From Escherichia phage GEP101: DNA of 64,000 nucleotides. The position numbers and the translations under genes were made by a program. Within the stretch, counting starts at the first letter, position 1. Each line of letters starts with the position of its first letter. The notes beneath the pieces were generated by a model. It did not search any database. It was not told the origin of the DNA and saw nothing but the letters and a program-made list of their open reading frames with translations. Below, in pieces: positions 628 to 51,458 of this stretch. The stretch lies in the sequence record PQ036202. One strand, written 5' to 3'.

Positions 628-720
628 GGAAGATTAACCCTAAAAGGTAAGGGAGCAGTTTGCTAAACTGCCAGTAGCTGAGAAATCGGTGTACCAGTTC
701 AAGTCTGGTATCTTCCTCCA
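628..720 (+). tRNA. tRNA-Ser (anticodon GCU), type II with long variable arm, CCA encoded
   Basis: Acceptor GGAAGAT/ATCTTCC, anticodon stem GCAGT/ACTGC with loop TTGCTAA, T-arm ACCAG-TTCAAGT-CTGGT, 21-nt variable arm, 3-prime TCCA; folded by hand. Confidence 0.55.
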
Positions 721-724
721 ATTT

Positions 725-800
725 GAATCCGTGACAGAAATGGCTATGTGCCTGTCTGCAAAACAGGTTTATAAGGGTTCGAGTCCCTTCGGATTCTCCA
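725..800 (+). tRNA. tRNA-Cys (anticodon GCA), 76 nt, CCA encoded
   Basis: Perfect 7-bp acceptor GAATCCG/CGGATTC, U8, anticodon stem CCTGT/ACAGG with loop CTGCAAA, T-arm AAGGG-TTCGAGT-CCCTT, discriminator U73 typical of tRNA-Cys. Confidence 0.65.
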
Positions 801-9978: not shown

Positions 9979-11331
9979 ATGTGGAATCCAATTGTTAATG
10001 TAGATATTACATTGAACACCGCAGGAACTACAAGAGAAGGTTTTGGGCTACCGCTATTTTTAGCTTCAACAGATAACTTTGAAGAAAGAGTCCGTGGTTA
10101 CACTTCCTTAACTGAAGTTGCTGAAGATTTCGATGAAAATTCTGCTGCATATAAGGCTGCTAAACAACTTTGGAGTCAGACTCCTAAAGTAACTCAGCTT
10201 TATATTGGTAGACGTGCTATGCAGTACACTGTATCAATTCCTGACTCTGTTACTGAAAGTACCGATTATTTTTTAACTGTAGCTGTGGGCGGTGGAGTTT
10301 CTCAACCATTCCAGTACACTTCACAGTCAGAAGATACTGCTGAGAAGGTGTTACAGCAGCTTAAAACACAGATTGAAGCTGACCCAACAATTAAAGATAA
10401 GGTCACTGTGAATGTAACTGGTTCTGGTAGTTCAGCAACAATGATTATTACCAAATCTGTTGGCAATGATTTTGTGAAGGTTACTACTACAGCACAAACA
10501 GTGTCAATTGCAAGTACAACTGCTGATACAGCATCAACTGCTCTGGCAGCTATCGAAGCTTATTCAACTGACTGGTATTTCATTGCAGCAGAAGACAGAA
10601 CTCAACAGTTTGTCTTAGCAATGGCTTCTGAGATTCAAGCTCGCAAGAAGATTTTCTTCACAGCTAACTCTGATGTAGCAGCACTGCAAGGTACAGAATT
10701 AGCTAGTGCAAATGATGTTCCAGCACAGCTTGCTAAGAATCAGTACACTCGTACAGTTTGCTTGTGGCATCACACAGCAGCAGAAGACTATCCAGAAATG
10801 GCATACATTGCTTATGGTGCTCCATATGATGCAGGTTCAATTGCTTGGGGTAACGCACAGTTAACTGGTGTAGCTGCTTCTCTACAACCATCTAATCAGA
10901 GACCTCTGACAAGTATTCAGAAGTCTGCTTTAGATGCACGTCACTGTAACTTTATTGACCTTGATGGTGGTGTTCCAGTGGTTCGTAGAGGGATTACTTC
11001 TGGTGGGGAATGGATTGATATCATCCGTGGTGTTGACTGGTTAGAATCAGACCTGAAAACTTCTCTGAGAGACTTGCTAATTAACCAGAAGGGTGGTAAG
11101 ATTACTTATGATGATACTGGTATTACCCGTATTCGTCAAGTCATTGAAACCTCTCTACAAAGAGCAGTCAACAGAAACTTCCTGTCATCTTACACAGTTA
11201 ATGTTCCTAAAGCCTCTCAAGTTGCTTTAGCAGACAAGAAAGCTCGTATCCTGAAAGATGTTACCTTCTCAGGTATCTTAGCAGGGGCTATCTTGGATGT
11301 TGACTTGAAAGGTACAGTGGCTTACGAATAA
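9979..11331 (+). CDS. tail sheath protein (putative)
   Basis: 450 aa, followed by about 150-aa tube-sized gene, strong terminator, chaperone pair and tape measure, the canonical myovirus order. Confidence 0.5.
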   Translation: MWNPIVNVDITLNTAGTTREGFGLPLFLASTDNFEERVRGYTSLTEVAEDFDENSAAYKAAKQLWSQTPKVTQLYIGRRAMQYTVSIPDSVTESTDYFLTVAVGGGVSQPFQYTSQSEDTAEKVLQQLKTQIEADPTIKDKVTVNVTGSGSSATMIITKSVGNDFVKVTTTAQTVSIASTTADTASTALAAIEAYSTDWYFIAAEDRTQQFVLAMASEIQARKKIFFTANSDVAALQGTELASANDVPAQLAKNQYTRTVCLWHHTAAEDYPEMAYIAYGAPYDAGSIAWGNAQLTGVAASLQPSNQRPLTSIQKSALDARHCNFIDLDGGVPVVRRGITSGGEWIDIIRGVDWLESDLKTSLRDLLINQKGGKITYDDTGITRIRQVIETSLQRAVNRNFLSSYTVNVPKASQVALADKKARILKDVTFSGILAGAILDVDLKGTVAYE

Positions 11332-11346
11332 TAGAGGTAAATTGGA

Positions 11347-11793
11347 ATGGCTATGTATCAGCAATATTCCCCTAAAGACGTTGTATGTAGCTGGAACGGC
11401 ATTGCTATTGAAGGCTTTGCTCCAGATTCATTCTTACGTCTACAGAGAACATCACCACTTATCACACCAGTTGTAGGTGCGGGTGGTCAGGTTGCTCTGA
11501 CAAGAAATGCAGACAAGACAGGTACTATTGAGATTGAGCTAATGCAGACTTCTCTCTCTAATCAGATGCTTTCTGCAATTCAAGCTAAACAAGACAATAT
11601 GGAACTTGAAGAAGATATCTCTTCTAACTTCGTAATCTACGACCCATCAGGCTCTGTTCTGGCAACTGGTATTAATGCTTGGTTGCAGGAGCTACCACAG
11701 ATTGAACTTGGTCGTGACCAGAACTCTAAAACTTGGATTTTTGGTTGTGAGAAGCTAGACTACACTTCTACAATTCCAGCGTCAAGTGTTTAA
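11347..11793 (+). CDS. tail tube protein (putative)
   Basis: 148 aa, position between sheath and chaperones, followed by strong terminator. Confidence 0.5.
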   Translation: MAMYQQYSPKDVVCSWNGIAIEGFAPDSFLRLQRTSPLITPVVGAGGQVALTRNADKTGTIEIELMQTSLSNQMLSAIQAKQDNMELEEDISSNFVIYDPSGSVLATGINAWLQELPQIELGRDQNSKTWIFGCEKLDYTSTIPASSV

Positions 11794-11803
11794 TAAATCC
11801 TAT

Positions 11804-11840
11804 AAGGGGGAGACTTTAAAAGGTCTTCCCCTTTTTTGTT
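11804..11840 (+). terminator. rho-independent terminator after tube gene
   Basis: 11-bp stem (AAGGGGGAGAC / GTCTTCCCCTT) with 8-nt loop followed by TTTTGTTTCTTTT. Confidence 0.55.
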
Positions 11841-11866
11841 TCTTTTAAAAGTATTAAGGAATCACA

Positions 11867-12265
11867 ATGAAAACAGAAGCTAGAGTAATTAATGGTAAGA
11901 AAGTAAATATCGTTCTGCTTGGGGCAAGAGATGGTATTAAGATGTCTATGAAGTTGGGTAAAATTGTTGTTCCAACCTTTGCACAGATGCTGTCAAGTCT
12001 GACTGATAAAGACAAGAAAGAAGCTCCAATGGTTCCATTTAAAGAACTTGTTGAAGCTTGTTTTGACAGAATTGAAGAAATTAACCTTGAAGAAATGGCT
12101 ACCTTACTATTTCAAGGGGCGACTGTTGATGACTTCCCACTAAATATTGATACCTATTTCCAAGCAAACTACGGTGAATTTATTGACTACTTAGCATTTG
12201 CGCTGGAGGCAAACTTCGGAAGTTTTTTCGAAGCAAGCATTTTCAAAAGCCTAACTTCTCAGTAA
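11867..12265 (+). CDS. tail assembly chaperone (G-like)
   Basis: Position directly upstream of tape measure; contains slippery heptamer near its 3-prime end. Confidence 0.45.
   Translation: MKTEARVINGKKVNIVLLGARDGIKMSMKLGKIVVPTFAQMLSSLTDKDKKEAPMVPFKELVEACFDRIEEINLEEMATLLFQGATVDDFPLNIDTYFQANYGEFIDYLAFALEANFGSFFEASIFKSLTSQ
12223..12229 (+). other. candidate -1 programmed ribosomal frameshift slippery site T_TTT_TTC
   Basis: Heptamer TTTTTTC is in X_XXY_YYZ register of ORF 11867..12265; the -1 frame from 12229 is open into ORF 12268..12507. Confidence 0.45.
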
Positions 12266-12267
12266 AC

Positions 12268-12506
12268 ATGGGTAACACTCTACAGACACCACTAACTGAT
12301 GCTGCTGTAGAGGCAACCTATGAAGAAGCAGACGAGATGAAATTTGTGCTTGCTATTTATGGTATGGAAGGGTGTAAAGAAACACTTGACCAACTCTTTG
12401 CTATGACATTCTCTGATTTATTATCATTGAGACAATTTCTTGAGATTCAGAGGTCGTATAAAGAGGAAATTGCTTACAACGAACTTAGAAGAGCAGGAAA
12501 AATGTA

Positions 12507-12507
<1 letters not shown>
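12268..12507 (+). CDS. tail assembly chaperone frameshift extension (GT-like)
   Basis: 79-aa ORF in -1 frame relative to upstream chaperone, stop overlaps tape measure start. Confidence 0.4.
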
Positions 12508-17891
<5,384 letters not shown>

Positions 17892-31331: not shown

Positions 31332-31888
31332 TCAATGTACCTCATACCAGCTCTTACCAACCTTTGCTGTACCAGTTACAAGTGTTTCTTTCCTCAAACC
31401 TAAGTTTTTTGAAGCTTGTCCATACATCCAGTCAGCAATTGCTTTCATATCATGTGTCATACCCTCTGGACATTCCCAACTATTTTCATCGTGATATGCC
31501 AGAAGTAACCTTGCTCCGATAGCTGGTTTTCGAGCATTCAGTTTTGTCAGGCCATCTTCACAGGCTTTTCTTGCTGCTAGGTTGATGGCCTCATTCTGAA
31601 TCTGTGCTTCCGAACTCATCAGGAGGTAGTTCAGTAGTTTATGTGGAGATTTGCACCATATCCATGCTCCAGCGACCCTGATATAACCACCTTTAGCAAT
31701 TGAAGAGTTCTTCCCAAAAACCTCTTCCAGAGCCTTTTTAGACACCTTAAAATCAGCTTCTAAGCTATCAAGTAACTTCTTAATCTTTGGCAAACGCATA
31801 TAGTAAGTTTGTTTAGTCAATGCACCTTCTTCCGTAGATGATGCCTTGATAGTTTTTGCAAACTTCTCATCGCCAGCCCCGAACAATA
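31332..31888 (-). CDS. DNA polymerase family A, exon 2 (C-terminal, motif B second half and motif C)
   Basis: LFGAGDEKFAK aligns with T7 pol FLYGAGDEK; HDE motif C; no ATG at exon start (ORF track begins at TTG). Confidence 0.75.
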
Positions 31889-32156
31889 CATCTGGTCAAT
31901 ACACTCGCAAGGTGTACCAGTTCTCTTATGAACTTCTCCGCATTTCTACGGAGTGTCGGACTATATCACGTAGCAGTGATGCTACCGTTGCACTTGGGGA
32001 TGGCCATTAGCTTACCACCCTACTCTACTCAGTTCATACATTAAGTATGCTTTTCGATAGTCTCTGAACGTTCCTCTTAAGAGGCTTCGCTGCTGATTAC
32101 CATATCTTTCCAGACTTAGGCTTCCAGCAATTCACAACGTTTTACATGCGCCACTG
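31889..32156 (-). ncRNA. group I self-splicing intron (ORF-less) in DNA polymerase gene
   Basis: Minus-strand P/Q/R/S elements AATTGCTGGAA, AATCAGCAGC, GTTCAGAGACTATCG, GTGATATAGTCCG; IGS GCGCAT pairs exon end ATGCGT with U-G at splice site; terminal G. Confidence 0.8.
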
Positions 32157-34299
32157 ACGCATAAATGCCATTTTTGGCTTTCTTACGACCTTTTGTAATC
32201 TCGTGAAGAAGCTCCTCATCCTGCGTCTCCCTACAACGAACAATATCATCTTCCTTGTTTAGACCAAAGTAAATACTATTCAGTGTATGTGCATCAGTAC
32301 CTGTGTAGACTTCGTAGAGGTCATTCTCAGCATCATAACGAAGATACTTATCAGTTTCTGGATTGAGGTACTTATCGAGATGCTTGCAATAGTATCTTCC
32401 ATCCTCTTGCTTGGTAAATTCTACTGACTCTTTACCTTCAGTTACCGCTTTGGTGAAGTCTTTATCACCCATAAAGTTACACAGTAAAACAAGCTGTGCA
32501 GAGTTCTGGTCAACTGAAACGATATTAGTCCCTTCCTCGCAAATCCACACCTCCCTCATAGGTGCTCCATAGACAGCAGCACCAGACGGTACGTTTACAA
32601 TACCATATTGTGTCATACGTCCAGTTGAAGTACCAAATACCATTGCACCGGCACTAAGGCGACCATCAGGGCGAATCTGGTTCAACCAACCTTTTTCATC
32701 ATCCTTTGAGTTCTCAATAGTTCTACGTCGGTGCATCAAAGTGTAGTATTTCGCAATCTTCTGTCCAAGCTCACCTTCAATCGTATCATAAGATGATTCA
32801 GTAAGTTTTGGTGAAGTACGGATTAAGCAAGGCTCAAGCAAATCTGTGTACTTCTTCACAGACCAGTTATGCTCAATGTACTGGACACCTTCATGTTCAA
32901 CATAACTCAAACCACACCGTTCCACCATCTCATCCCACTTAGGATGCTTTGTAATCATCTTTTTGTTGTCTTTGAAACGACAAACTTTGACAGGACGACC
33001 GTCAGAGTCTTTCTTGTAGTTCCAGTCATCTGGAATCCAACCAACTGATTTCAAGTAGTCTTTAACAACTGCTACCTGAGTCATACGAGAAACTTCGAAC
33101 TCAATTGGTGTATATGGTGCATCAATCAAACCTGTGTAGCGACTTGACTCAAGCTCAAAGTGGTTAACGACATGGCTGTTATAGTACTTCACAGTTTTAA
33201 CTGTTTTTACTGGCTTCCAGTCTTTGCACTTCTTACCAATCTTTGCATTCAACTCATTGCAAATTGCACGAGCATCCTTCATTGCTACAAAACCTTCCTT
33301 GTACTCTTCACCAGTTACAGAGTTGGTTGGTGTATAGCAATTCCGCTTTTCAATGTTAAAAATCTTTGTAGTTGGCTTACCAAATGGCTTGATTTCATAT
33401 GTCTGCATCTCACCGTTACGTACCTGTTGACGATACTTTGTCTTAGGGTACTTGGTAATTCTTTTCAGTCCATCTGCATGACCAAATGCTTCAACATACT
33501 CATTCCAAGCTTTTGCAAACTCTTCTCCAGTGACTTTACCTTTGGTCTTAATAGTTGGAGGAAGATGTGGTTCAACTTCTGAAGCAAGCTCATTAGTCAA
33601 CTTGTCAAGTTCCTTTACATGAAACTCCATAAGCTCTTTATCAGCTTTCCAACCATTGATAGCCTGTTGACTCATCCAGAAAGATGTTTCTTTAGCTCGC
33701 ATGTAAGTCTCATAAGTGTCTATACCACACTTCTTAAGCTTGAGATACTCGTTATCAAGTGCCCGTTTAGTTTTGGCGTTGATACGGATATCTTCCACAA
33801 CACGAGTGAAGATTTCTGCATTCCACACACCCCAATGTTCAATCTCTGGTTTACGGACACCAACACGAGCACCCCATGCTGCCAAGCCATGAGCACCTTT
33901 ATAGCCCTTTGGAGTTGGTCTATCCATCCACTGAACACGAGACTGGATAAGAGAATCCTGAAAGAAATTACTCCACGGCTTACACTTTGGATTATCAAAG
34001 TTCCACAAATCAGGTGCAATGTGGTTGAAAACCCACCAGTCATAACCGAGACCGTTATGGATGCAAAGACGTTTTGCCTTTAACGCAAACTCAACACCTT
34101 CACGCAAACCACCCTTAATGTACTTGGTGTACTTGTGACCGAGGATAGGCTCATCTGTAAAGACCCATACAGGTGGCTCTTCATCGTCAGATTTATAGTC
34201 TGCGAAAGCCATGACGTGTACTTTAGTGAACTCAAGGAGTAAACCATCAGTTTCTGTATCACCAACTAAGTGTAAGTTTTTAAAATCTACGTTTTCCAT
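32157..34299 (-). CDS. DNA polymerase family A, exon 1 (3-5 exonuclease and polymerase motif A, first half of motif B)
   Basis: GDTETDGL exo motif (cf. Pol I DTETDSL), DQNSAQLVLL motif A-like, RKKAKNGIYA start of motif B; start at ATG 34299 with GAGGGA RBS. Confidence 0.8.
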
Positions 34300-34554
34300 T
34301 TCTACTCCCTCTAAATCATTAACCACATACATTACTGCAAAAAATTATAAAAAGCAAGTTGACAATGTACTTGACAAGGTGTTAATCTTTGCGAAGTGGG
34401 TTTTTACTTAAAAGGTTACTTAACAGTTTAACTATACAGATACTTTAAAACTCTTAAAAGATTATTTAATAGCTTTTAAAAGTTTTAAAGTATAACGTAT
34501 AGAATACGTTAAGATAAAAGATTAAAACTTAATAGTTACTTAAAAGAGGCTTAC

Positions 34555-34978: not shown

Positions 34979-35779
34979 ATGAATACTACTGTAGACCAGA
35001 TGCTTAAAGAAAAAGGTATTGACGAAGCATTCTTAATCAATGCCGTAGAAAGCATGGCTATGATTCTTCGTGGAAACAACTACACAGAACAGTTTATGCC
35101 TGCAAGCTATAACTTGCCTAAAGACAAGTCTGATAACGGTGCTTTTGCAGAACAGGTTAATATGATGCTGTGTGACAAAACACTTGCTTTAGCATCTATC
35201 GTTGTAGGTGTTGATGCTCTCGCAGAGTTCATTTTTTATGAGATGCAGAAAAATGACTATATTGCCATGACCTCTGAAGAAAAAGACTTGCTACTGCTCT
35301 TAGGTTATGATGAGCTAGTTGACCTGTTAATTTCGTCAACAAGTGCTGTTATGGCTGCTCTTGAGAAGCGAATGGAAGAGAAGCTGTCACGATATGAAAA
35401 ACTTGATTGGGGTGTAGAAGAGTTAAACCCACGAATCAAAGAGATTATCCAGCAAACCAAAGATTCTTTGGAAGAAGCTGTTAAAGATGATTCCGTAGCT
35501 GATGTAGAACCACTACAGGTGAAGGTCGCTCTAATGATTCCAGCTATTTCTACAATGATGAATATCGTTGCACTAATCCAACTTTCACAGATGATGGGTG
35601 TGAGTATGGAGTTCATTGAGGAGATGACTGGTGGTGTCAGTATGCAAGCAATCAATGATGTTTTGGTGAACATTGGTGCTTCAATCATTGAAGAGAAACT
35701 ACGCATTAACTTCGGTGATGATTTTGTGAAGCAACTCTCAGCTATGGCTGAAAAAGAGTCTGCTGAGCAACTGCACTAA
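34979..35779 (+). CDS. hypothetical acidic protein
   Basis: 266-aa ORF. Confidence 0.4.
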   Translation: MNTTVDQMLKEKGIDEAFLINAVESMAMILRGNNYTEQFMPASYNLPKDKSDNGAFAEQVNMMLCDKTLALASIVVGVDALAEFIFYEMQKNDYIAMTSEEKDLLLLLGYDELVDLLISSTSAVMAALEKRMEEKLSRYEKLDWGVEELNPRIKEIIQQTKDSLEEAVKDDSVADVEPLQVKVALMIPAISTMMNIVALIQLSQMMGVSMEFIEEMTGGVSMQAINDVLVNIGASIIEEKLRINFGDDFVKQLSAMAEKESAEQLH

Positions 35780-35796
35780 GTCTTTATAAACCCTAC

Positions 35797-35821
35797 AAGC
35801 CTCCTTAGTTGGGGGCTTTTT
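35797..35821 (+). terminator. rho-independent terminator
   Basis: AAGCCTCC-TTAGTT-GGGGGCTT followed by TTTT. Confidence 0.45.
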
Positions 35822-35840
35822 AGTAATTAAGGGAGATAAA

Positions 35841-36584
35841 ATGAGTAATATTATTGCATTTACTGGAAAGGCGCGTTCTGGAAAAGATACCTCATGTTCT
35901 ATTGTGAAGAATATCCTAGAAGATGAGTATGGCTACAATGTTGCAGTAATGGCCTATGCAGACAATCTTAAGCTATCTGCATCAAAGATATTTGACCTGA
36001 CTTGGAATGACCTGTACGGTGAAACTAAAGAGACTCCACAGGTCTTTGATTTATCATACTCTGAACTTATGACTAAAGTTACGGAAGCTATGGAGTTCAC
36101 CTTCAGAGATGAACGTTACCATATGGACTTTAAGCTTATGTCAGAGTTAACCGGACGATTAATCATGGAACTTAAGAAGGTCGCTAAACCGACTCTATTG
36201 ACACGTCTGGGATTTAGCAAAAAGTATAAATTCTCATCAAGACAAATTCAACAGATTTGGGGCACTGAAGTAATCCGTAAAGTTATGGGTGACAAGTTCT
36301 GGTCTAAAGACCTTGAAAAAAGAATGGTAAACTTCTTTGACGTTTGCTCACTCAGGAATCAAGAAGGTGTTGTTTTAATCAGTGACTTAAGGTTTGACTC
36401 TGAAGCTGAGTGGCTGAGTAGATTTGCACACCAAACTATTGAAGTAAAAAGAGACAATGTGGACAAGGTTTCATCACATGTTTCAGAAAATGGAATTTCT
36501 ACCAAATATGCGCGTGACATTATCCATAATAATGGTACTCTTGAAGACCTTGAAAGCAAGCTAAGAGCTATCCTGAAAATTTAA
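35841..36584 (+). CDS. deoxynucleoside monophosphate kinase
   Basis: N-terminal P-loop IIAFTGKARSGKDT resembles T4 gp1 dNMP kinase (LIFLSGVKRSGKDT). Confidence 0.6.
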   Translation: MSNIIAFTGKARSGKDTSCSIVKNILEDEYGYNVAVMAYADNLKLSASKIFDLTWNDLYGETKETPQVFDLSYSELMTKVTEAMEFTFRDERYHMDFKLMSELTGRLIMELKKVAKPTLLTRLGFSKKYKFSSRQIQQIWGTEVIRKVMGDKFWSKDLEKRMVNFFDVCSLRNQEGVVLISDLRFDSEAEWLSRFAHQTIEVKRDNVDKVSSHVSENGISTKYARDIIHNNGTLEDLESKLRAILKI

Positions 36585-36592
36585 AAGAGAGA

Positions 36593-36793
36593 ATGAAGAT
36601 GAGAGTAAAAGATAATTTTAAAGTTATTGACCATCGTTTAGTGGAACTCTCATCTCTTTCCAATGAGGTAATGATTGAACGTCTTAAGAGAGTTGAATCA
36701 CGAAGGAAAGAGATTGCAGATGAAATTCATGAACTGGACAAGATTGAAAATGGATTGAAGGCAGAACTACAACGAAGAGGTGCTAATGTCTAA
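36593..36793 (+). CDS. hypothetical coiled-coil protein
   Basis: 66-aa ORF. Confidence 0.35.
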   Translation: MKMRVKDNFKVIDHRLVELSSLSNEVMIERLKRVESRRKEIADEIHELDKIENGLKAELQRRGANV

Positions 36794-50408: not shown

Positions 50409-50894
50409 ATGAATTACATGGAGATTCGACCATTTGACACAGCTAATGGTGAAGGGGTTCGGGTAAGCCTCTTCGTAGCTGGCTGTAAACATCACTGTGA
50501 AGGCTGCTTTAACAGGGAGTCTTGGAAGTTTAATGCTGGTAAAGAGTTTACTTATGCAAACCTCTACGGCATCATTAAATTAATGGATGATGAGGCCATC
50601 AGTGGGTTGTCAATACTCGGTGGAGAACCTCTTGATGACAGAAACATTCAAGAAGTCACCAACATATGTAAACGTATTAAAACTGTTTACCCAGAAAAGT
50701 CTATCTGGCTCTGGACAGGTTTTCAGTTACACGAAAAAATTCATCTAGATGTGATGAAATATGTTGACGTGGTGATTGATGGTAAGTATGATTCTTCTAA
50801 ACCAACAGTTAAACCATATCGTGGTTCTGATAACCAAAACCTCTGGAGAAAAGAGTATGGATGGCAAGGCGATTGTCAATGGCGAGCAGAGTAA
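50409..50894 (+). CDS. nrdG: anaerobic RNR activating enzyme (radical SAM)
   Basis: CKHHCEGC CxxxCxxC-type cluster motif, about 160 aa, adjacent to nrdD. Confidence 0.75.
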   Translation: MNYMEIRPFDTANGEGVRVSLFVAGCKHHCEGCFNRESWKFNAGKEFTYANLYGIIKLMDDEAISGLSILGGEPLDDRNIQEVTNICKRIKTVYPEKSIWLWTGFQLHEKIHLDVMKYVDVVIDGKYDSSKPTVKPYRGSDNQNLWRKEYGWQGDCQWRAE

Positions 50895-50931
50895 ATCTCG
50901 TCGTAAAATTGGTTACGGGAAAGGTGAGATA

Positions 50932-51234
50932 ATGGTTATCTCTTTTAACAGTGCTTTATTAGGTACTTATAAGGTTAAGACTGAACTCCTTGATGAGTGG
51001 AAAAAGTATACAAACTCACTCTTCGGTAATGTTGGAATGGAAGCCTTAGCAGAGATTGAGAAGGCTGGAACATTCGAAGTTGTTGGTAAAGGCCACTTTA
51101 CAATGTTCTACAAAACAAATTTAAACGTTGGTGACAGTATTGTTGGTGTCACTGAAGAAGAACTTAAAACATTTTGTGAAAAGATTGAGAGAGATGCGAA
51201 ATGGGAATCTGGAACAGTTTTAAATCAAAAATAA
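50932..51234 (+). CDS. hypothetical protein
   Basis: Start moved to ATG 50932 with AAGGTGAG RBS. Confidence 0.35.
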   Translation: MVISFNSALLGTYKVKTELLDEWKKYTNSLFGNVGMEALAEIEKAGTFEVVGKGHFTMFYKTNLNVGDSIVGVTEEELKTFCEKIERDAKWESGTVLNQK

Positions 51235-51458
51235 AAGCAGCACTGGCATCACTAGGTATGCTCACTGGTGTTGACGTTACTCATCTCATGCAGAACTTCA
51301 AGATGGATGAGAAGCTGGCTAATGAGATTATGAAAAGTATCTATGTAGGCCGTGGTAAAGGTGGTAAGAAACAAGCCCACCGTCCGTCTGGTGCAGCAGC
51401 TATTAAACGAGCAGCTAAGAAAGCTCGTAACCGTAAACGTAACAAGAAGGCTAAATAA
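51201..51458 (+). CDS. small basic protein
   Basis: 85 aa, K/R-rich C-terminus. Confidence 0.3.
   Translation: MGIWNSFKSKIKAALASLGMLTGVDVTHLMQNFKMDEKLANEIMKSIYVGRGKGGKKQAHRPSGAAAIKRAAKKARNRKRNKKAK

What the first reader, a model, noticed from the sequence alone, without database searches (positions are those of the whole stretch)
12223..12229. Canonical -1 slippery heptamer linking the two tail chaperone ORFs
T_TTT_TTC sits in the X_XXY_YYZ register 36 nt before the stop of ORF 11867..12265, and the -1 frame is open from 12229 straight into ORF 12268..12507. This reproduces the conserved G/GT frameshift of tail assembly chaperones and supports the tape-measure assignment of the next gene. 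No downstream stimulatory structure was verified.
Basis: seen in the sequence. Interest (0 to 1): 0.4.

Follow-up and report, generated by a model that had tools for sequence, protein, structure and literature searches.

The report
Felix O1-type tail chaperone frameshift
The window is a Felix O1-like phage, and the T_TTT_TTC site is a real, strongly conserved programmed -1 frameshift signal that fuses its two tail assembly chaperone reading frames; the feature is ordinary and already annotated in sister phages.

Summary
TTTTTTC lies at 12223-12229 in the X_XXY_YYZ register of ORF 11867..12265. The -1 frame is open from 12187 to the stop at 12505-12507, which overlaps the tape measure ATG (12507).

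The window is a Felixounavirus, 97.6% identical to Escherichia phage ZX4221. The upstream ORF is a Pfam Phage_TAC_15 chaperone and the next gene is a tape measure protein.

T_TTT_TTC or T_TTT_TTT sits at the homologous Phe-Phe position, in register, in all 53 related loci examined (about 17 lineages). These go down to 26% protein identity. Each has a 79-123 codon -1 extension ending at or near the tape measure start. In several lineages the conserved T-part lies upstream of any start codon, so only a frameshift can express it. The window's ATG at 12268 has no Shine-Dalgarno sequence.

I found no downstream stimulatory structure. A Shine-Dalgarno-like GGAGG lies 13 nt upstream and recurs at that spot in most lineages, so it is a plausible dnaX-type stimulator.

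The frameshift is already annotated as a joined CDS in Salmonella phage Mushroom and Citrobacter phage Mordin. It is also described in print for Moogle and Michonne. No experimental proof was found.

Verdict: interpretation supported, already known, low interest.

The parts
11804..11843 (+). Intrinsic terminator-like hairpin plus T tract between the tail tube gene and the chaperone gene. It probably lowers transcription into the chaperone and tape measure genes.
   Evidence: 13-bp stem with 6 GC pairs followed by TTTTTGTTTCT. The same site is annotated as a Rho-independent terminator in wV8 and Mordin.
11856..11860 (+). Shine-Dalgarno sequence (AAGGA) of the chaperone gene G, 6 nt before ATG 11867.
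   Evidence: Sequence. Anti-SD duplex -6.1 kcal/mol, comparable to neighbouring genes.
11867..12265 (+). G: tail assembly chaperone, zero-frame product of 132 aa.
   Evidence: Pfam PF21822 Phage_TAC_15, E = 1.2e-19, 71.5 bits against a cut-off of 22. PHROG 1613 tail assembly chaperone, 2.7e-48.
12205..12209 (+). Internal Shine-Dalgarno-like GGAGG, 13 nt upstream of the heptamer. Candidate 5' stimulator of the -1 shift (inferred).
   Evidence: Anti-SD duplex -9.3 kcal/mol, within the top 0.2-0.3% of the window. The known working distance for -1 frameshifting is 9-14 nt (PMC5009743 section 36). SD-like motifs occur at the same spot in 13-14 of 18 lineages. A synonymous-codon shuffle test gives Fisher p = 5e-4.
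12223..12229 (+). Slippery heptamer T_TTT_TTC. Phe-tRNAs on UUU (P site) and UUC (A site) re-pair with UUU and UUU in the -1 frame.
   Evidence: Invariant GTTTTTT core in the alignment of 11 divergent relatives. Present in register in all 53 related loci examined.
12221..12248 (+). 28-nt block AGTTTTTTCGAAGCAAGCATTTTCAAAA. It is identical in Felixounavirus, LPML1 and the Erwinia Kolesnikviruses, although their G proteins share only about 40-47% identity.
   Evidence: Codon identity given the same amino acid is 1.00 here, against 0.35-0.7 elsewhere in the gene.
12229..12507 (+). T part: -1 frame continuation of 92 codons plus the stop TAA at 12505-12507, which overlaps the tape measure ATG by one base. 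It includes the annotated 'ORF 12268..12507'.
   Evidence: PHROG 4963 tail assembly chaperone, 2.8e-55. ATG 12268 has no SD (+0.6 kcal/mol).
12507..14735 (+). Tape measure protein gene (742 aa).
   Evidence: Pfam PF20155 TMP_3, 63.8 bits against a cut-off of 41. PHROG 4036, E = 0.
9979..11793 (+). Tail sheath (9979..11331) and tail tube (11347..11793) genes immediately upstream. They define the contractile-tail gene order.
   Evidence: DUF3383 and PHROG 205 tail sheath. KPP10_Orf10 and PHROG 280.

Best explanation
A programmed -1 ribosomal frameshift yields two tail assembly chaperones from one mRNA.

Most ribosomes translate 11867..12265 and release G (132 aa). A minority slip back one base on T_TTT_TTC (12223-12229) while the two Phe-tRNAs occupy UUU and UUC. 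They then read 12229..12504 in the -1 frame and release a 213-aa GT fusion (...EANFGSFF-RSKHFQKPNFSVNMGNTL...) at the TAA that overlaps the tape measure start codon.

By analogy with lambda G/GT and P2 E/E+E', the shared G part coats the tape measure protein. The T part recruits tube (and here sheath-tail) assembly, and neither protein ends up in the virion.

The slip is probably helped by the internal GGAGG 13 nt upstream pairing with the 16S rRNA tail, as in dnaX and IS elements, rather than by a downstream RNA structure.

Shown here: the anatomy, the homology and the conservation. Inferred: the slip itself, the G:GT ratio, the role of the SD-like element and the roles of the two proteins.
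For: 1. Register and open frame are confirmed.

2. G is a Pfam Phage_TAC_15 member and lies between the tube and tape measure genes.

3. T_TTT_TTC or T_TTT_TTT is in register at the homologous Phe-Phe position in all 53 related loci examined (about 17 lineages). These comprise Felixounavirus, Mooglevirus, LPML1, Kolesnikvirus, Pectobacterium Wc4-1, Alteromonas PT11-V22, Vequintavirinae and 11 uncultured IMG/VR relatives at 26-35% identity. Each has a -1 extension of 79-123 codons that ends at or near the tape measure start. The base before the run stays T even where the codon changes (AGT, TCT, TGT).

4. The conserved T-part sequence lies upstream of the first possible start codon in several phages. 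That first start is at T codon 55 in phiEa104 and MM7, 60 in PT11-V22, 63 in PBES02 and 27 in LPML1. Independent initiation cannot make it there.

5. ATG 12268 has no SD (+0.6 kcal/mol, against -4.8 to -7.9 for neighbouring genes) and its position is not conserved.

6. Synonymous sites are frozen around the slip site.

7. UUY A-site codons and all-pyrimidine heptamers are shift-prone in E. coli (PMC4066793).

8. An SD-like element lies within the 9-14 nt range.

9. Joined CDSs of exactly the predicted length exist: 213 aa in Mushroom and 212 aa in Mordin. The frameshift is stated in print for Moogle and Michonne.
Against: - I found no protein-level evidence for the fusion in any Felix O1-like phage.
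- No stimulatory structure lies downstream: z-scores run from -1.6 to +1.0 and the consensus fold energy is -0.28 kcal/mol. This is not required, however.
- The window does have an ATG (12268) two bases after the G stop, so some free T protein made by termination-reinitiation cannot be excluded.
- The Phe-Phe dipeptide is invariant at the protein level, so part of the heptamer's conservation could reflect protein constraint.
- The SD-like element is missing in LPML1, Kolesnikvirus and PBES02. The lineages in its statistical test are not independent.
- One of the two search patterns that recovered the distant relatives required Phe-Phe. This biases the amino acids recovered, but not the codon choice.
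Confidence: 0.88

Rival explanations
1. These are two separate genes, as most GenBank and RefSeq records annotate them. G ends at 12265, and a 79-aa T protein is started independently at ATG 12268, perhaps by termination-reinitiation across TAAACATG. On this view the heptamer is only the coding of a conserved Phe-Phe.
For: wV8 RefSeq and most of the roughly 300 related records list two CDSs. The ATG lies 2 nt after the G stop. Phe-Phe is invariant in the protein alignment. PHROG 4963 models the 79-aa ORF as a stand-alone family.
Against: No SD precedes 12268 (+0.6 kcal/mol). The ATG shifts position or is absent in relatives, and conserved T residues precede any start codon in phiEa104, MM7, PT11-V22, PBES02 and LPML1. 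Codon choice (TTT TTY preceded by T) is fixed in every lineage, although TTT-first Phe-Phe pairs are otherwise rare: 5 of 22 in this phage.
Confidence: 0.06
2. Transcriptional slippage: RNA polymerase adds one U in the T6 run (T7 in some relatives). Normal translation of the longer mRNA would then give the same GT protein.
For: The slip site is a homopolymer run. Several distant relatives have seven Ts. The protein product would be identical to that of ribosomal slippage.
Against: Productive bacterial transcriptional slippage is described for runs of about 9 A or T (PMC5009743); here there are only 6. The run keeps the exact codon register in every lineage, and a positioned SD-like element accompanies it. 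Both matter only to the ribosome.
Confidence: 0.04
3. The heptamer is a chance or neutral feature with no recoding, and the -1 ORF is non-functional.
For: About 0.09 in-register heptamers of any kind are expected in the overlap by chance.
Against: The heptamer, the frame layout and the T-part protein sequence are conserved across about 17 lineages down to 26% identity.
Confidence: 0.02

Closest known systems
Annotated frameshifted 'tape measure chaperone' of Salmonella phage Mushroom (KP143762, Felixounavirus), Citrobacter phage Mordin (KT363872) and phages Moogle and Michonne (Mooglevirus)
   Same: This is the same gene pair, with the G protein 99% identical in Mushroom and 74% in Mordin. The heptamer, the overlap and the fusion length (213 and 212 aa) are the same. 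The join is annotated, and the frameshift is stated in the genome announcements.
   Different: Nothing of substance. Those records are predictions too, without protein evidence.
Phage lambda G/GT tail assembly chaperones (Levin 1993; Xu, Hendrix and Duda 2004; summarised in PMC5009743)
   Same: Two overlapping ORFs lie just upstream of the tape measure gene. A -1 slip near the end of the first ORF gives a minor fusion product. No strong downstream structure is present (for the lambda description).
   Different: Lambda uses G_GGA_AAG and is a siphovirus. There is no detectable sequence similarity, and G here belongs to Pfam Phage_TAC_15. The G:GT ratio of this phage is unknown (about 30:1 in lambda).
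Phage P2 E/E+E' (contractile-tail phage frameshift)
   Same: It is a myovirus, and from my own knowledge (not retrieved here) its slip site is a T-run, T_TTT_TTG. The chaperone pair lies between the tube and tape measure genes. The review reports frameshift efficiency 2-3 fold higher than in lambda.
   Different: No sequence homology was detected. The last base of the heptamer differs. P2 has a different sheath and tube family.
E. coli dnaX and IS3/IS911 -1 frameshift cassettes
   Same: A slippery heptamer is preceded by an internal Shine-Dalgarno-like sequence within the 9-14 nt distance. Here GGAGG lies 13 nt upstream.
   Different: dnaX and the IS elements also use a 3' stem-loop or pseudoknot, and none is found here. 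The heptamer is U-rich rather than A_AAA_AAG. The function of the SD-like element here is untested, and it is absent in some lineages.
T4-like tail assembly chaperones (Vladimirov, Gautam and Davidson 2022, listed in the references of PMC10885494)
   Same: They chaperone the tape measure protein of a contractile tail.
   Different: [quoted passage not shown] This phage keeps the classical frameshift layout.

Membership tests
G/GT-type tail assembly chaperone pair with programmed -1 frameshift | The gene pair sits directly upstream of the tape measure gene and downstream of the major tail (tube) gene. | tested here: met
   The order is sheath 9979..11331, tube 11347..11793, G 11867..12265, T ..12507, tape measure 12507..14735. 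Family assignments come from Pfam and PHROGs.
G/GT-type tail assembly chaperone pair with programmed -1 frameshift | The second ORF is in the -1 frame and overlaps the 3' end of the first. | tested here: met
   The -1 frame is open 12187..12507, a 76-nt overlap with G.
G/GT-type tail assembly chaperone pair with programmed -1 frameshift | A slippery heptamer X_XXY_YYZ lies in the zero-frame register inside the overlap. | tested here: met
   T_TTT_TTC at 12223-12229 is the only in-register heptamer in the overlap.
G/GT-type tail assembly chaperone pair with programmed -1 frameshift | The slip site and two-frame layout are conserved among divergent relatives. | tested here: met
   All 53 related loci examined (about 17 lineages, 26-100% identity) keep T_TTT_TTY in register with a 79-123 codon extension.
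G/GT-type tail assembly chaperone pair with programmed -1 frameshift | The downstream ORF lacks its own translation start signals. | tested here: met
   There is no SD before ATG 12268 (+0.6 kcal/mol). In five lineages no start codon precedes the conserved T sequence. The window does have an ATG, so this holds for the family and only probably for the window.
G/GT-type tail assembly chaperone pair with programmed -1 frameshift | Two proteins, G and a minor GT fusion, are actually made. | not testable with these tools
   This needs a western blot or mass spectrometry of infected cells. None of the papers I read reports it.
G/GT-type tail assembly chaperone pair with programmed -1 frameshift | Both products are needed for tail assembly and are absent from virions. 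| not tested
   The VpaE1 virion proteome paper lists 22 structural proteins, but the table was not readable and the text does not mention chaperones.
Pfam PF21822 Phage_TAC_15 | HMM score above the curated gathering threshold. | tested here: met
   71.5 bits against a cut-off of 22, residues 9-124 on profile positions 1-124 of 127. All 92 database homologues carry PF21822.
XkdN/YqbN-like tail chaperone fold | Structural similarity of the G domain to a solved chaperone of this class. | tested here: inconclusive
   [not shown]
dnaX/IS-type stimulated -1 frameshift cassette | An internal SD-like sequence lies 9-14 nt 5' of the heptamer. | tested here: met
   GGAGG at 12205-12209, with 13 nt between it and the heptamer and a -9.3 kcal/mol duplex. 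Its function is untested.
dnaX/IS-type stimulated -1 frameshift cassette | A stable stem-loop or pseudoknot lies 5-9 nt 3' of the heptamer. | tested here: not met
   No fold is better than shuffled sequence in 11 relatives. The alifold energy is -0.28 kcal/mol. There is no Rfam match.

The most novel reading that the evidence does not exclude
In this chaperone family the frameshift signal may be a two-part cassette. A positioned internal Shine-Dalgarno-like motif (GGAGG, AAGGAG, AGGGAG or GGAGGTGA, about 10-13 nt upstream) together with T_TTT_TTY would set the G:GT ratio without any 3' structure. Lineages that lost the motif by a GAG-to-GAA change (Kolesnikvirus, LPML1, PBES02) would then run at a different ratio or rely on the frozen 28-nt block downstream. 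That would make it a natural series for studying how SD-anti-SD pairing tunes a viral frameshift.
Probability: 0.4. Interest if true: 0.3.

Novelty: already known. Interest (0 to 1): 0.12.

Why it matters
The practical value is for annotation. Most of the roughly 300 Felix O1-like records, including RefSeq wV8, list two separate chaperone CDSs and omit the 213-aa fusion. The comparative data here justify annotating the join at 12229.

The site also confirms independently that 12507..14735 is the tape measure gene. Biologically it adds one more well-conserved case to a rule known since 2004.

The only mildly new point is the recurrent, correctly spaced SD-like motif with no 3' structure. If functional, it would show that a phage chaperone frameshift can be tuned in the same way as dnaX and IS elements.

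Tried and rejected
- **Downstream stimulatory structure.** RNAfold of +4..+50 and +4..+70 in 11 relatives gave z-scores from -1.6 to +1.0. RNAalifold gave -0.28 kcal/mol with no covariation. A hairpin at 12267-12322 (part of a fold with z = -2.1) starts 38 nt after the heptamer, and its 5' arm is not conserved. I rejected it as a stimulator.
- **Hairpin that includes the heptamer** (CUUCGGAA/UUCGAAG). The whole 12190-12290 fold containing it is no better than shuffled sequence (z = 0.23), and a ribosome on the site would melt it.
- **Weak terminator-like hairpin at 12203-12219**. It has 6 pairs, two of them G-U, and is not conserved in the Erwinia phages. I treated it as chance.
- **Rfam.** No frameshift element appears at either the gathering or the E <= 1 threshold.
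- **PDB sequence search and NCBIfam with the GT fusion.** Nothing significant.
- **Foldseek against PDB.** No hit with E < 1.
- **Scan of bacterial genome contigs for prophage relatives.** Nothing found.
- **Second long-extension heptamer at 51219.** This is an ordinary gene overlap, because the next gene starts at ATG 51201, upstream of the heptamer.
- **Protein database search with the fusion.** It returned only 124-136 aa G-type entries, so fused forms are essentially absent from gene-caller output.

Full report
**What the window is.** Region 9979-14735 is 97.6% identical over its full length to Escherichia phage ZX4221. It is 96-97% identical to wV8 and many other Felixounavirus genomes. 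The finding therefore lies in the tail module of a Felix O1-like myophage.

**Check of the observation.** The bases at 12223-12229 are TTTTTTC.
- ORF 11867..12265 places codons at 12224-12226 (TTT) and 12227-12229 (TTC), with the T at 12223 as the third base of AGT. The site is in the X_XXY_YYZ register.
- The -1 frame is open from 12187. It reads FF-RSKHFQKPNFSVN-MGNTL... through the annotated ORF 12268..12507 to TAA 12505-12507, which overlaps the ATG of the next gene at 12507.
- The predicted fusion is 213 aa.
- All the coordinates and the '36 nt before the stop' statement are correct.

**Is it more than chance?**
- In-register heptamers of the general form XXXYYYZ are common: 63 in 66 long + strand ORFs, or 3.67 per 1000 codons. 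About 0.09 would be expected in the 25-codon overlap. The heptamer alone is weak evidence.
- Only this heptamer and one other give a -1 extension longer than 27 codons. At the other (51219), the next gene has its own ATG upstream of the heptamer.
- TTTTTTC is depleted in the window: 12 found against 26.8 +/- 5.2 expected, with only 2 on the coding strand.
- Of 22 Phe-Phe codon pairs in long ORFs, only this one is T_TTT_TTC.

**Identity of the genes.**
- ORF 11867..12265 matches Pfam Phage_TAC_15 (71.5 bits, cut-off 22) and PHROG 1613, tail assembly chaperone.
- The 79-aa ORF matches PHROG 4963, tail assembly chaperone.
- 12507..14735 matches Pfam TMP_3 and PHROG 4036, tape measure protein.
- The two genes upstream are the sheath (DUF3383, PHROG 205) and the tube (KPP10_Orf10, PHROG 280).
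- A strong terminator-like hairpin at 11804-11833 separates the tube gene from the chaperone gene. It is annotated as a terminator in wV8 and Mordin.

**Comparative evidence.** I fetched loci from GenBank phages and from IMG/VR.
- In every one of the 53 related loci examined, T_TTT_TTC or T_TTT_TTT sits in register at the homologous Phe-Phe position. The -1 frame is open for 79-123 codons, to or near the tape measure start.
- The set spans Felixounavirus, 80% relatives, Mooglevirus (74%), LPML1 (47%), Pectobacterium Wc4-1 (43%), Erwinia Kolesnikvirus (40%), Alteromonas PT11-V22 (33%) and Vequintavirinae (28-30%). It also includes eleven uncultured relatives at 26-35% identity.
- The base before the T run remains T even when the codon family changes (AGT, TCT, TGT).
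- The alignment of 11 divergent sequences has an invariant GTTTTTT core.
- One of the two search patterns used to find the distant loci required Phe-Phe. This biases the amino acids recovered, but not the codon choice or the register.

**Frameshift versus separate genes.** The translated -1 frame aligns across lineages from the slip site onward.
- The first possible start codon in that frame is at T codon 55 in phiEa104 and MM7, 60 in PT11-V22, 63 in PBES02 and 27 in LPML1. Each lies downstream of conserved T-part residues. In those phages the T part can be expressed only as a continuation of G.
- In the window an ATG exists at 12268, but it has no Shine-Dalgarno complementarity. Its duplex energy is +0.6 kcal/mol, against -4.8 to -7.9 for eight neighbouring genes.
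- The position of this ATG is not conserved even in 74-80% relatives.
- Synonymous sites are frozen around the slip site. Codon identity given the same amino acid is 1.00 in the 9-codon window at 12218, against 0.35-0.7 elsewhere. This is as expected for a recoding site followed by a dual-coding overlap.

**Stimulatory elements: downstream.** No downstream structure is present.
- The 47- and 67-nt segments after the heptamer fold no better than shuffled sequence in any of 11 relatives (z from -1.6 to +1.0).
- The consensus fold has an energy of -0.28 kcal/mol.
- Rfam has no match.
- A hairpin at 12267-12322 is too far away, and its 5' arm is not conserved.

**Stimulatory elements: upstream.** GGAGG at 12205-12209 lies 13 nt before the heptamer.
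- Its pairing energy with the 16S rRNA 3' end (-9.3 kcal/mol) is within the top 0.2-0.3% of the window.
- The distance falls in the 9-14 nt range reported for SD stimulators of -1 frameshifting (PMC5009743, section 36).
- SD-like motifs of different sequence occupy the same position in 13-14 of 18 lineages: GGAGG, AAGGAG, AGGGAG, CGGGAG, GGAGGTGA and GAGGT. They are absent where the conserved Glu codon is GAA instead of GAG, namely in LPML1, Kolesnikvirus and PBES02.
- A synonymous-codon shuffle test gives p = 0.03-0.2 in the lineages that carry the motif (0.6-1.0 in the three that lack it) and Fisher p = 5e-4 over 17 lineages, which are not independent.
- I regard a dnaX/IS-like 5' stimulator as plausible (about 0.4-0.5) but unproven.
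- Published rules for E. coli place UUY A-site codons and all-pyrimidine heptamers among the shift-prone motifs (PMC4066793).

**Prior knowledge.**
- The frameshift is annotated as a two-piece joined CDS in Salmonella phage Mushroom. Mushroom is in the same genus, and its G protein is 99% identical. Its span of 641 nt gives 213 aa with a -1 slip, matching my prediction.
- It is also annotated in Citrobacter phage Mordin (212 aa).
- Most other records, including RefSeq wV8, list two separate CDSs.
- I found no experimental demonstration in this phage group.

**Verdict.** The feature is an already known, already annotated member of the classical tail chaperone frameshift class.
- Confidence that a programmed -1 ribosomal frameshift at 12223-12229 produces a GT fusion: about 0.88.
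- Rivals: separately initiated T (0.06), transcriptional slippage on the T run (0.04), no function (0.02).
- Interest is low. The only modest addition is the recurrent, correctly spaced SD-like motif without a 3' structure.

Noticed in passing
window 31936-32219 (- strand), with ORFs 31332..31886 and 32116..34332 (- strand): There is a group I intron here (Rfam RF00028, 62.1 bits against a gathering score of 50). Relatives annotate this region as a split DNA polymerase plus an HNH or homing endonuclease. Only 114 of 256 related records cover at least 80% of this region, so the insertion may be variable (I did not check which part is missing).
   Followed up: partly
window 11804-11843: A strong intrinsic terminator-like hairpin (13-bp stem plus T tract) lies between the tail tube gene and the chaperone gene. 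It probably lowers expression of the chaperone and tape measure genes relative to sheath and tube. It is annotated as a terminator in wV8 and Mordin.
   Followed up: partly
window 12221-12248: The 28-nt block AGTTTTTTCGAAGCAAGCATTTTCAAAA is identical in phages whose G proteins share only 40-47% identity (Felixounavirus, LPML1, Erwinia Kolesnikvirus). Dual coding may explain this, but a cis role in frameshifting is not excluded. Pectobacterium Wc4-1 diverges after GAAGCA.
   Followed up: partly
window 51219-51225 (ORF 50776..51234; next ORF 51201..51458): This is the only other in-register heptamer (T_TTA_AAT) with a long -1 extension (77 codons). The downstream gene has its own ATG at 51201, before the heptamer, so it looks like an ordinary gene overlap.
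   Followed up: partly
whole window, both strands: TTTTTTC is under-represented: 12 found against 26.8 +/- 5.2 expected. It is strongly skewed away from the + strand (2 against 10), which carries the structural module examined. Phe-Phe pairs avoid TTT as the first codon (5 of 22, despite 57% TTT usage). This suggests selection against accidental slippery runs.
   Followed up: partly
[not shown]
   Followed up: no
L041 (OK283618.1, 'Listeria phage LPML1'): This record is labelled as a Listeria phage. It is classified in Ounavirinae, and its slip-site cassette is nearly identical to those of the Erwinia and enterobacterial phages, so the host label looks doubtful.
   Followed up: no
L036 (NC_015292.1, Erwinia phage phiEa104) 1-972: The tail sheath gene is annotated as two adjacent CDSs (35347-36114 and 36119-36706). 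This suggests a sequencing frameshift or a stop in the record. In the same record the T part is annotated only from an internal ATG (37 aa), which truncates the conserved sequence.
   Followed up: no
window 628-797: Two tRNA genes (Rfam RF00005, 46 and 56 bits) lie near the start of the window, upstream of the structural module.
   Followed up: no
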